DNA of 34,669 nucleotides from a virus (lineage: Duplodnaviria; Heunggongvirae; Uroviricota; Caudoviricetes): the IMG/VR virus record IMGVR_UViG_2872158770_000004, one strand, 5' to 3'. A program made the translations under genes and the position numbers. This document shows positions 22,100 through 22,700 of this stretch, piece after piece (within the stretch, counting starts at the first letter, position 1; each line of letters begins with the position of its first letter). The notes below the pieces were generated by a model. That model made no database searches and had not been told where the DNA came from. It saw only the letters and a list, made by a program, of their open reading frames with translations.

Positions 22100-22437
22100 G
22101 AAGGAAACAAAACAGAAACAGCAATTGCCGTTACCTGTTGTTACCATGGCAAGTAAACGTATCTCAGGCGAGCGCATTGCGCCGTTCTGACGCAGATAAA
22201 CTAGCCTGGATAGATGGTGCTGGCAATAAAAAATAGCGTTTTCTTATCGGTGTCGGTAAGATTGCTGCGGGTGCTTGAGGCTGTCTGCCTCGGGTATGTC
22301 ACTGTAAGGCAGACAGAGAAAAGCCCCAGTTAACATTACGCGTCCTGCAAGACGCTTAACATTAATCTGAGGCCCAATCTATGTCTCACAAATGTAGGTT
22401 AGCCTCTTACGTGCCGAAAGGCAAGGAGAAGCAGGCT

Positions 22438-22593
22438 ATGAAGCAGCAAAAGGCGATGTTAATCGCCCTGATCGTCATCTGTTTAACCGTCATTGTGACG
22501 GCACTGGTAACGAGGAAAGACCTCTGCGAGGTACGAATCCGAATCGGCCAGACGGAGGTCGCTGTTTTCGTAGACTACGAATCTAGAGAGTAA
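22438..22593 (+). CDS. hok: Hok/Gef-family type I toxin (51 aa)
   Basis: MKQQKAMLIALIVICLTVIVTALVTRKDLCEVRIRIGQTEVAVFVDYESRE matches the Hok family pattern; AAGGAG RBS; in-frame upstream ATG at 22381 gives the longer track ORF; GC hairpin downstream at about 22603-22624. Confidence 0.8.
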   Translation: MKQQKAMLIALIVICLTVIVTALVTRKDLCEVRIRIGQTEVAVFVDYESRE

Positions 22594-22700
22594 GAGTGAC
22601 CAGGCGGGAGAGTAATCTCCCGCCACCTTTGATGTGTCAGGCATCCTCAACGCACCCGCACTTAACCCGTTTCGGCGGTTTTTTTGGTAATGACTCCAAC

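What the first reader, a model, noticed from the sequence alone, without database searches (positions are those of the whole stretch)
22300..22686. Hok-family type I toxin inside the prophage, abutted by IS1
A 51-aa Hok/Gef-like ORF with a strong RBS, an in-frame upstream ATG and a GC hairpin downstream. A Sok-like antisense RNA would be expected on the minus strand around 22330-22440 but I cannot delineate it. IS1 copy 2 begins right after the hok 3' T-run and has no target duplication, so the 3' processing region may be altered.
Basis: partly seen in the sequence, partly recalled or inferred. Interest (0 to 1): 0.45.

Follow-up and report, generated by a model that had tools for sequence, protein, structure and literature searches.

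The report
Known hok/sok toxin-antitoxin module beside IS1
This is an ordinary, already annotated hok/mok/sok type I toxin-antitoxin cassette in a decayed lambdoid prophage of Shigella sonnei; it looks structurally intact, and the IS1 next to it removed only the spacer DNA downstream of the hok terminator.

Summary
A 51-aa Hok/Gef ORF lies at 22438-22593 (Pfam HOK_GEF, E 6.7e-22). It has an AAGGAG ribosome-binding site, an in-frame mok start at 22381 and a 9-bp GC hairpin in the 3' UTR. IS1 (22686-23453) starts right after the terminator T-run and has no target duplication.

It carries every hallmark of the R1 hok/sok model:
- tac/fbi pairing between the 5' and 3' ends;
- ucb sequestering the mok Shine-Dalgarno;
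- the protective 3' stem.

Sok maps to the minus strand at about 22389-22319. Its promoter region is identical, bar one base next to the start site, to that of the tested sokW of phage 933W/Sp5.

An IS-free E. coli relative is 99.4% identical through the T-run. It shows that IS1 replaced 135 bp of conserved spacer beyond the terminator, so the 3' processing region is unchanged. The only coding change is T36I, which also occurs in other Hok variants.

The exact protein is already annotated in Shigella sonnei on at least 1000 contigs. Verdict: already known, low interest. Toxicity and RNA expression were not tested.

The parts
22257..22262 (+). hok/mok promoter -10 hexamer TAAGAT. No good -35, consistent with the weak promoter typical of hok.
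   Evidence: It aligns with the R1 -10 TATGAT, 933W TAGAAT and plasmid TACAAT. The R1 -10 was validated by suppressor mutations (PMC9841398). It lies 6 nt upstream of the mRNA 5' end implied by the Rfam hit. Not verified experimentally here.
22269..22685 (+). Full-length mok-hok mRNA, about 417 nt, from the tac element to the terminator T-run.
   Evidence: Rfam RF01794 covers 22269-22443 at 118 bits. The fold has dG -163 kcal/mol, z -5.9, with the 5' and 3' ends paired. The region is 99.4% identical to IS-free E. coli FDAARGOS_944 over 486 nt. The ends are inferred, not mapped.
22269..22280 (+). tac (translational activator) element, GGGUGCUUGAGG.
   Evidence: It pairs with fbi in the full-length fold (duplex -21.5 kcal/mol). 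It pairs with ucb (AAGCCCC) in the 3'-truncated fold.
22281..22316 (+). 5' leader hairpin. The loop SNP at 22295 is T here and C in the E. coli relative.
   Evidence: Two of its 13 pairs have changes on both sides across the 12-sequence alignment (helices 2 and 3).
22321..22329 (+). ucb / anti-SD box (AAGCCCCAG).
   Evidence: In the full-length fold GCCCCAG pairs with CUGAGGC, which holds the mok SD. In the truncated fold AAGCCCC pairs with tac. This is the switch described for R1 (PMC9841398).
22319..22389 (-). Sok antisense antitoxin RNA, about 71 nt. It has a single-stranded 5' tail complementary to the mok start region, a long hairpin and a U-rich tail. The 3' end may extend to about 22315.
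   Evidence: Coordinates are transferred from the sokW annotation of 933W, with 64 of 71 nt identical. Fold dG is -30.7 kcal/mol, z -5.9. sokW was shown to be an antitoxin (PMC8621323). Expression here was not tested.
22396..22424 (-). Sok promoter: -35 TTGCCT (22424-22419), 17-nt spacer, -10 TAACCT (22401-22396).
   Evidence: The 46 nt upstream of the Sok start match 933W at 45 of 46 positions, with both hexamers and the spacer identical. They are positionally homologous to R1 TTGCGC-17-TATCCT. The consensus scan missed it because the hexamers are weak.
22369..22372 (+). mok Shine-Dalgarno GAGG, 8 nt upstream of the mok AUG.
   Evidence: It corresponds to the GAGG mok SD of R1 (PMC9841398).
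22381..22593 (+). mok reading frame (70 aa). Here it is in frame with hok and shares its stop codon.
   Evidence: The layout matches the annotated mokW/hokW. The exact 70-aa product is on record in S. sonnei.
22438..22593 (+). hok toxin gene (51 aa), with its SD AAGGAG at 22423-22428. Ile36 is encoded at 22543-22545 (SNP at 22544). Tyr47 is TAC at 22576-22578.
   Evidence: Pfam HOK_GEF E 6.7e-22. It matches HokW at 48 of 51 residues and K-12 HokD at 46 of 51. The exact sequence is 'Hok/Gef family protein [Shigella sonnei]' on at least 1000 contigs.
22603..22624 (+). 3' UTR GC hairpin (9 bp, GUAA loop). This is the terminal stem of the processed (truncated) hok mRNA.
   Evidence: dG -20.9 kcal/mol, z -4.2. 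Six of 9 pairs show compensatory changes and 99% of cells are paired across 12 loci. In R1 this stem protects the truncated mRNA from 3'-5' exonucleases (PMC9841398).
22645..22657 (+). fbi (fold-back inhibition) element, CCUCAACGCACCC.
   Evidence: It pairs with tac over 12 bp with one bulge, -21.5 kcal/mol. It is intact and lies 28 nt upstream of IS1.
22667..22685 (+). hok terminator: a weak 4-bp stem (CCGU-UUCG-GCGG) plus 7 Ts.
   Evidence: Six other relatives have the stronger CCCGC-UUCG-GCGGG stem. The weakened version is shared with IS-free FDAARGOS_944, so it predates IS1.
22686..23453 (-). IS1 (768 bp, insA/insB on the minus strand). It has no target-site duplication and replaces 135 bp of conserved spacer present in relatives.
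   Evidence: Terminal repeats located. Flanks compared. The gap relative to L002 is 3707-3841. The junction is identical in six S. sonnei assemblies.

Best explanation
The region is a structurally complete hok/mok/sok type I toxin-antitoxin cassette of the phage-borne hokW/hokD subgroup. It sits in the nin region of an IS-riddled lambdoid prophage of Shigella sonnei, between the replication genes and the Q antiterminator.

The mechanism below is inferred from the R1 and hokW paradigms. It is not shown for this locus.
1. A weak constitutive promoter makes a stable mRNA of about 417 nt.
2. The 5' tac element pairs with the 3' fbi element. The ucb box sequesters the mok ribosome-binding site, so the full-length RNA is neither translated nor bound by Sok.
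3. Slow 3'-5' trimming removes fbi and stops at the GC hairpin at 22603-22624.
4. tac then pairs with ucb. This frees the mok SD, and hok translation is coupled to mok translation.
5. While the DNA is present and transcribed, the short-lived Sok RNA (minus strand, about 22389-22319) pairs with the mok start region. That blocks translation and triggers RNase III cleavage.
6. If Sok synthesis stops, for example through loss of the DNA or prophage induction, Hok inserts into the inner membrane and kills or lyses the cell.

The neighbouring IS1 inserted in or next to the spacer downstream of the terminator and is associated with a 135-bp deletion. That deletion explains the missing target duplication. 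The hok transcript itself is untouched.
For: Shown here:
- Pfam HOK_GEF, E 6.7e-22.
- Rfam RF01794, 118 bits over 22269-22443.
- tac/fbi and ucb/mok-SD pairing in the full-length fold, and tac/ucb pairing in the truncated fold.
- A Sok-strand fold with a free 5' tail, a long hairpin and a U tail.
- Sok promoter hexamers and spacer identical to 933W, with one difference in the 46 nt upstream of the start, and positional homology to R1.
- On a 12-locus alignment 93.8% of structure cells are paired, against 36-44% when partners are slid. Twelve pairs have compensatory changes, six of them in the 3' stem.
- 99.4% identity to an IS-free E. coli locus through the T-run, with only three C-to-T differences.
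- Prophage context: O-like/primosomal, NinB-like, Q-like, holin and endolysin genes.
- hok sits directly upstream of the same 70-aa ORF, DUF1367, YbcO and Q block in 10 of 10 contexts examined.
- The exact protein is conserved on at least 1000 Shigella contigs.

From the literature:
- The R1 conformational-switch model and the protective role of the 3' stem (PMC9841398).
- hokW-sokW of Sp5/933W is a working type I TA system that depends on RNase III and Hfq and aids lysis on induction (PMC8621323).
- 42 of 45 diverse Hok peptides were toxic, and hok is enriched in prophages (bioRxiv 10.1101/2025.08.07.668861).
Against: - No expression or toxicity data exist for this locus.
- Hok carries T36I relative to its closest IS-free relative. 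Ile is the minority state, seen in 16 of 131 sampled relatives, which include the query's own cluster and several partial copies of the same S. sonnei protein. Its effect is untested, and the FASTBAC-Seq supplement that might have informed on the equivalent R1 residue D37 is not held.
- The terminator stem is weak (4 bp, -4.6 kcal/mol).
- The consensus promoter scan found no sigma-70 site on either strand. Both promoters rest on homology.
- Chromosomal hok loci tested in E. coli did not give post-segregational killing (Pedersen and Gerdes 1999, as cited).
- NCBIfam hits are below their curated cut-offs (51.7 bits against 73).
- The prophage is defective, so the phage-release role shown for hokW may no longer apply.
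Confidence: 0.85

Rival explanations
1. The cassette looks intact but is functionally silent. On this view it is a relic drifting in a dead prophage, like the inactivated hok loci of E. coli K-12, and T36I and/or the weakened terminator have abolished toxicity or proper regulation.
For: - The prophage is riddled with IS1 and IS3-family copies.
- T36I is the only coding change relative to the IS-free relative, and Ile is the minority state.
- The terminator is weakened relative to six relatives.
- K-12 hokA, hokC and hokE are considered inactivated by nearby IS elements, and chromosomal loci did not mediate post-segregational killing.
Against: - All regulatory elements are identical to an IS-free E. 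coli copy.
- There is no frameshift or stop codon.
- The exact protein is kept on at least 1000 Shigella contigs.
- Ile36 recurs in several otherwise different E. coli Hok variants (P0004, P0006, P0009), at a position that is Asp in R1 Hok.
- 42 of 45 diverse Hok peptides were toxic.
- The weak terminator predates IS1 and is shared with E. coli.
Confidence: 0.15
2. IS1 at the end of the T-run changes 3'-end formation of hok mRNA. Transcripts would read through the weak terminator into IS1, as K-12 gef mRNA ends inside IS186, and this would alter fbi folding, 3' processing or mRNA stability.
For: - IS1 begins immediately after 7 of the ancestral 8 Ts.
- The terminator stem has only 4 bp.
- There is a precedent: IS186 downstream of K-12 gef/hokC disrupts fbi and the mRNA ends within the IS (PMC3562002).
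- IS421 cuts the 3' stem of a plasmid hokD.
Against: - The 3' stem, fbi, terminator hairpin and T-run are all retained and identical to the IS-free relative.
- Maturation is by 3'-5' exonucleolytic trimming back to the GC stem. Extra 3' sequence should therefore be removed.
- No promoter-like site faces out of the IS1 end into hok.
Confidence: 0.1
3. The ORF and hairpins are a chance resemblance and there is no toxin-antitoxin locus.
For: None beyond the small size of the ORF.
Against: - Pfam E 6.7e-22.
- Rfam E 1.6e-26.
- 92.7% nucleotide identity to the characterised hokW-sokW locus.
- Compensatory changes in the RNA helices.
Confidence: 0.01

Closest known systems
hokW-mokW-sokW of Stx2 phage 933W / Sakai prophage Sp5 (AF125520; Takada et al. 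2021, PMC8621323)
   Same: - 92.7% nucleotide identity over the whole cassette.
- Hok identical at 48 of 51 residues, and the same in-frame mok/hok layout.
- Same Sok promoter hexamers and spacer, with one base different in the 46 nt upstream of the start, and the same Sok hairpin.
- Same tac and fbi.
- A small conserved 27-aa hydrophobic ORF lies just upstream in both.
- Lambdoid prophage host.
   Different: - Six of the 7 Sok differences cluster in the 5' single-stranded recognition tail. Cross-inhibition between the two is therefore not guaranteed.
- Hok differs at T36I, E50R and K51E.
- About 205 bp more upstream spacer here, including a strong hairpin.
- The terminator region diverges after fbi.
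- Here the prophage is defective and IS1 abuts the terminator.
hok/sok (parB) of plasmid R1, the founding member of the family
   Same: Same architecture and positional homology of every element:
- -10 of the hok promoter;
- tac (GGCGCUUGAGG), ucb, and the mok SD GAGG;
- Sok promoter (TTGCGC-17-TATCCT against TTGCCT-17-TAACCT);
- hok SD AAGGAG;
- 3' GC stem, and fbi pairing with the 5' end.
   Different: - The Hok proteins are only distantly similar. HokW, which is 94% identical to this protein, is 44% identical to R1 Hok.
- In Rac-type loci mok is annotated out of frame with hok, whereas here it is in frame.
- The Sok target hairpin sequence is unrelated.
- Plasmid-borne, with proven post-segregational killing.
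hokD (relF) of the E. coli K-12 Qin prophage
   Same: - Closest named K-12 paralogue, with 46 of 51 residues identical.
- PGAP names near relatives of this locus hokD.
- Prophage-borne.
- The TAC-G Tyr codon at the position edited by TadA is conserved.
   Different: K-12 hokD is reported to have lost canonical components of the toxin-antitoxin system through genomic rearrangement (PMC12214031). This locus keeps the mok, Sok, tac and ucb elements.
gef/hokC of E. coli K-12 with IS186 downstream (also hokA and hokE with insertion elements)
   Same: An insertion sequence sits just 3' of an intact hok reading frame. This pattern recurs for chromosomal hok loci, and a plasmid hokD with IS421 is another case.
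   Different: In K-12 the IS is thought to disrupt fbi and normal mRNA processing, with the mRNA ending inside the IS. Here IS1 lies beyond fbi and the terminator T-run, so the transcript is not truncated.

Membership tests
Hok/Gef toxin family (Pfam PF01848) | A peptide of about 50 aa with an N-terminal hydrophobic helix and a conserved C-terminal domain holding the conserved Cys. | tested here: met
   HOK_GEF E 6.7e-22, 77.3 bits against a cut-off of 22, profile positions 1-42 of 42. C30 is present. 586 homologues have E <= 1e-3. NCBIfam Hok subfamily models hit but fall below their curated cut-offs.
[quoted passage not shown] | An overlapping upstream mok reading frame with its own SD, to which hok translation is coupled. 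| tested here: met
   The ORF 22381-22593 is present, with GAGG 8 nt upstream. The layout matches the annotated mokW. Translational coupling itself cannot be tested with these tools.
[quoted passage not shown] | A cis-encoded antisense Sok RNA with its own promoter and terminator, overlapping the mok translation-initiation region. | tested here: met
   This is sequence-level evidence only. The 71-nt homologue of sokW is 64 of 71 identical. The promoter hexamers and spacer are identical to the functionally tested sokW promoter region, with 45 of 46 nt matching upstream of the start. The fold has a free 5' tail, a hairpin and a U tail. The generic promoter scan did not flag it. Transcription was not tested.
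[quoted passage not shown] | Long-range tac/fbi pairing that closes the full-length mRNA. | tested here: met
   A 12-bp duplex of -21.5 kcal/mol between 22269-22280 and 22645-22657, present in the MFE of the full-length RNA. It is invariant among the phage-type loci, so there is no covariation signal within this set. R1 uses its own matching pair, GGCGCUU/GAAGCGCC.
[quoted passage not shown] | Alternative ucb pairings: with the mok SD in the full-length RNA and with tac in the 3'-processed RNA. | tested here: met
   The full-length fold has GCCCCAG paired with CUGAGGC. The truncated fold has GGG.GCUU paired with AAGCCCC. These are predictions only. The structure was derived from this same sequence, so the counts lean towards it.
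[quoted passage not shown] | A stable 3' stem-loop that ends the processed mRNA and protects it from exonucleases. | tested here: met
   A 9-bp GC stem at 22603-22624, dG -20.9, z -4.2. Six of 9 pairs have compensatory changes and 99% of cells are paired across 12 loci. The role is known from R1.
[quoted passage not shown] | Rfam covariance model of the hok leader / Sok region (RF01794). | tested here: met
   118.1 bits against a gathering score of 59, E 1.6e-26, model positions 1-157 of 157. The model matches the sense (hok leader) strand, not the strand that encodes Sok.
[quoted passage not shown] | Hok is toxic, Sok neutralises it, and the RNAs have different stabilities (post-segregational killing). 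| not testable with these tools
   Shown for the 92.7%-identical hokW-sokW locus (PMC8621323) and for R1. Not shown for this sequence, which has the T36I variant.
IS1 simple insertion | A 768-bp element with IRL and IRR, flanked by a 9-bp (8-10 bp) direct target duplication. | tested here: not met
   The element and both terminal repeats are intact, but the flanks differ (GGTTTTTTT against TTTTGTCTC). Copies 1 and 3 in the window do have duplications. The IS-free relative shows 135 bp missing at this site. The copy therefore reflects insertion plus an adjacent deletion, or recombination between two IS1 copies, rather than a simple insertion.

The most novel reading that the evidence does not exclude
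hok/sok lies on a 2.7-kb segment bracketed by two IS1 copies in direct orientation (19170-19937 and 22686-23453). Recombination between them would excise the cassette. The most novel reading not excluded is that the module acts as an addiction element: it kills cells that lose this segment and so helps freeze an otherwise decaying, IS-riddled prophage region in S. sonnei. A related reading is that read-through from the weakened terminator into IS1 gives S. sonnei a hok mRNA with altered 3' maturation. Neither reading has direct support. No IS1-by-IS1 deletion variant was seen among the 10 genomic contexts sampled, but that sample is far too small to show counter-selection.
Probability: 0.08. 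Interest if true: 0.35.

Novelty: already known. Interest (0 to 1): 0.1.

Why it matters
It matters little beyond correct annotation. The gene is already annotated as a Hok/Gef family protein in Shigella sonnei genomes. The family, its RNA switch and a 92.7%-identical phage homologue (hokW-sokW) have all been characterised experimentally.

The useful outcome is a precise map of the unannotated RNA parts: the Sok RNA and its promoter, tac, ucb, fbi and the 3' stem. It also shows that, unlike the IS-inactivated hok loci of E. coli K-12, the IS1 here left the transcript intact. The cassette may therefore still be a live toxin-antitoxin module in a human pathogen.

Tried and rejected
- **Consensus promoter scan of 22050-22760.** It found no sigma-70 site on either strand. 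The hok and Sok promoters have weak hexamers, so I identified them by positional homology to R1 and 933W instead.
- **Hybrid outward promoter at the IS1 IRR end driving antisense into hok.** Rejected. TTGGAG in the IS1 end has no usable -10 at 16-18 nt, and one search found none.
- **A transposed Tn9-like composite (IS1, hok segment, IS1).** Rejected. Copy 1 has its own target duplication and the outer flanks of the pair do not match.
- **FASTBAC-Seq data on the R1 residue equivalent to I36 (D37).** The supplementary tables are not held, so I surveyed natural variation instead.
- **TadA A-to-I editing context of Tyr47.** The TACG motif is present, but the local MFE puts it in a stem rather than a loop. 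Inconclusive.
- **Equivalog-level naming by NCBIfam.** Only sub-threshold hits.
- **S. sonnei genomes that lost hok by IS1-by-IS1 deletion.** None among 10 contexts. The sample is too small to conclude anything.
- **The Rfam 'sok' hit as direct evidence for the antisense gene.** Rejected as such, because the model matches the sense leader strand.

Full report
**1. What is there**

Reading 21700-23700 and listing ORFs confirms a 51-aa ORF at 22438-22593 on the plus strand. Its sequence is MKQQKAMLIALIVICLTVIVTALVTRKDLCEVRIRIGQTEVAVFVDYESRE.
- It is preceded by AAGGAG (22423-22428) with a 9-nt spacer.
- An in-frame ATG at 22381 gives a 70-aa product.
- The 51-aa protein matches Pfam HOK_GEF over the whole profile (E 6.7e-22, 77 bits against a cut-off of 22).
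- Rfam RF01794 ('sok antitoxin') matches 22269-22443 at 118 bits, against a gathering score of 59.

The Rfam hit is on the plus strand and ends at the hok AUG. The model therefore describes the hok leader, which is the Sok target strand, not the Sok gene itself.

**2. Source and context**

The exact 51-aa and 70-aa products are on record as Hok/Gef family proteins of Shigella sonnei, on at least 1000 contigs. The window differs from S. sonnei Ss046 (CP000038.1) at 3 of 6156 positions compared around hok.

The neighbouring genes show a lambdoid prophage:
- O-like/primosomal replication genes;
- DUF551;
- a NinB-like DUF1367 gene and a YbcO-type gene;
- a Q-like antiterminator;
- four tRNAs;
- holin and endolysin genes.

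The prophage is heavily invaded by IS1 and IS3-family elements.

In 10 of 10 genomic contexts sampled for the downstream 70-aa ORF, a hok gene sits directly upstream of the same block: the 70-aa ORF, DUF1367, YbcO and Q. Upstream genes vary. hok is therefore a regular fixture of this phage module. Hok enrichment in prophages is documented (bioRxiv 10.1101/2025.08.07.668861).

**3. RNA anatomy**

The cassette is 92.7% identical to hokW-mokW-sokW of phage 933W/Sp5. That record annotates sokW on the opposite strand.

Transferring the annotation puts Sok at about 22389-22319 on the minus strand. It is 64 of 71 nt identical to sokW. Six of the seven differences lie in the 5' single-stranded tail.

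The Sok strand folds into a free 5' tail, a long hairpin and a U-rich tail (dG -30.7 kcal/mol, z -5.9).

Upstream on the minus strand lie TTGCCT, a 17-nt spacer and TAACCT (22424-22396). The hexamers and spacer are identical to 933W, and 45 of the 46 nt upstream of the start match. They are positionally homologous to R1's TTGCGC-17-TATCCT. A generic consensus scan did not flag either promoter, so both rest on homology. The hok -10 (TAAGAT, 22257-22262) aligns with R1's validated TATGAT.

Folding gives the two states expected from the R1 model (PMC9841398).
- Full-length RNA, 22269-22685 (dG -163 kcal/mol, z -5.9): the 5' tac element GGGUGCUUGAGG pairs with CCUCAACGCACCC (fbi, 22645-22657), and GCCCCAG (ucb) pairs with CUGAGGC, which holds the mok SD.
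- RNA truncated after the GC stem: tac pairs with ucb, AAGCCCC.

In R1 it protects against 3'-5' exonucleases.

On an alignment of 12 loci, 93.8% of the cells in these helices are paired, against 36-44% when partners are slid. Twelve pairs have changes on both sides, and six of these are among the nine pairs of the 3' stem. Three caveats apply:
- the structure was taken from this sequence;
- the set is small and the sequences are related;
- tac/fbi is invariant within the phage-type group.

**4. The IS1 junction**

IS1 occupies 22686-23453. Its IRR end lies against the 7-T run. Its flanks (GGTTTTTTT and TTTTGTCTC) are not duplicated. The other two IS1 copies in the window do carry 9-10 bp duplications.

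E. coli FDAARGOS_944 has the same locus without IS1. It is 99.4% identical over 486 nt up to the T-run, and it then continues with 135 bp that are absent from the window. That spacer is highly conserved in six further IS-free relatives.

This IS1 copy therefore reflects insertion plus an adjacent deletion, or recombination between two IS1 copies. It removed DNA beyond the hok terminator. The 3' stem, fbi, the terminator hairpin and 7 of 8 Ts are unchanged.

The terminator stem is weaker than in most relatives (CCCGU/GCGGU in place of CCCGC/GCGGG). That change is shared with the IS-free E. coli copy and so predates IS1.

The junction is identical in six S. sonnei assemblies, so it is old and fixed.

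This contrasts with K-12 gef/hokC. There IS186 is thought to disrupt fbi and normal mRNA processing, and the mRNA ends inside the IS (PMC3562002). It also contrasts with a plasmid hokD whose 3' stem is cut by IS421.

**5. Is the toxin likely to be active?**

Only three nucleotides differ from the IS-free relative, and all three are T here against C there.
- 22295, in a hairpin loop.
- 22544, which gives T36I.
- 22566, which is synonymous.

Ile at residue 36 is the minority state. It occurs in 16 of 131 sampled relatives, against 113 with Thr. The sample includes the query's own cluster and several partial copies of the same S. sonnei protein. Ile also occurs in otherwise distinct E. coli Hok variants, and R1 Hok has Asp at this position.

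HokW (48 of 51 residues identical) is toxic and is neutralised by sokW in a manner that depends on RNase III and Hfq (PMC8621323). Of 45 diverse Hok peptides tested, 42 were toxic.

I therefore consider the module probably functional. This is inference; nothing was tested for this sequence. Chromosomal hok loci studied earlier did not give post-segregational killing. The phage-release role shown for hokW may also be moot in a defective prophage.

**6. Comparison and verdict**

The locus meets every sequence-level defining feature of the hok/sok family that I could test. These are the Hok domain, mok, the Sok RNA with its promoter, tac/fbi, the ucb switch, the 3' stem and the Rfam model. Toxicity and RNA half-lives cannot be tested here.

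It belongs to the phage-borne hokW/hokD subgroup and is already annotated in public S. sonnei genomes. Novelty: already known. Interest is low.

Only the hedge that the 3' processing region might be altered is not supported.

The least ordinary reading left open is that the cassette counter-selects deletion of the segment between the two directly repeated IS1 copies, or that read-through into IS1 changes mRNA maturation. Neither has direct support.

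Noticed in passing
window 21980-22063 (+); L001 1384-1467: A 27-aa hydrophobic ORF (MTWPEAFTTVGIAMAVALVVYSICRWG) starts at an ATGA overlap with the stop codon of the DUF551 gene. A near-identical ORF precedes hokW in phage 933W. It has no Pfam hit. It could be a small membrane peptide that travels with the hok cassette.
   Followed up: partly
window 22068-22100: A strong 13-bp hairpin flanked by A and T runs (AAAAACCCCGG...CCGGGGTTTTTG) lies between the small ORF and the hok promoter. The scan reported it as a minus-strand terminator-like site, and the flanking runs suggest it could act in both directions. It is absent from the 933W arrangement.
   Followed up: no
window 22576-22579: Hok Tyr47 is encoded by TAC followed by G. 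This is the TadA A-to-I editing motif reported to recode Tyr to Cys at the equivalent position of hokC, hokD and hokE (PMC5630033). Here the local MFE places it in a stem rather than a loop, so whether it can be edited is unclear.
   Followed up: partly
window 19170-19937, 22686-23453, 32990-33757: Three IS1 copies differ from one another at only 1-2 positions. Copies 1 and 2 are direct repeats that bracket a 2.7-kb segment carrying DUF4014, HNH, DUF551 and hok/sok. Copies 1 and 3 have 9-10 bp target duplications and copy 2 has none.
   Followed up: yes
L002 3707-3841 (absent from the window, between 22685 and 23454): The 135-bp AT-rich spacer deleted next to IS1 is almost invariant in seven IS-free E. 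coli relatives. This hints that it holds a regulatory element, such as a promoter, for the downstream 70-aa ORF and NinB-like genes.
   Followed up: partly
alignment A2 columns 83-127 (window 22329-22370): The Sok-target hairpin exists in at least two unrelated sequence versions among otherwise near-identical hokD-type cassettes: the window type, and a shorter type in L015, L016, L017 and L021. This looks like swapping of antitoxin specificity modules.
   Followed up: no
window 4160-4338 (+): Rfam RalA, the antitoxin sRNA of the RalR/RalA type I system of the Rac prophage, at 207 bits. This is a second RNA-antitoxin locus in the same window.
   Followed up: no
window 11511-11598 (-) and 11623-11699 (-): Rfam C4 antisense RNA (79 bits) and isrK (65 bits) lie adjacent to each other. 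I recall this pairing from the P1/P7-type antirepressor (ant) control region carried by some prophages.
   Followed up: no
window 25419-25729 (+): A cluster of four tRNA genes (Met-CAT, Arg-TCT, Thr-TGT, Gly-TCC) lies downstream of the Q-like antiterminator. This is the position where Stx-type lambdoid phages carry tRNAs.
   Followed up: no
L006 (NZ_AP025210.2) 633-711; L009 (CP151349.1) 3700-6156: A plasmid hokD copy has IS421 inserted inside its 3' GC stem. One S. sonnei genome has Mu-like transposase genes following the hok-proximal IS1 end in place of the usual downstream genes.
   Followed up: no
window 22269-22443: The Rfam family RF01794, named 'sok antitoxin', matches the sense hok-leader strand and ends at the hok AUG. 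A hit therefore marks the Sok target, not the strand that encodes Sok.
   Followed up: yes
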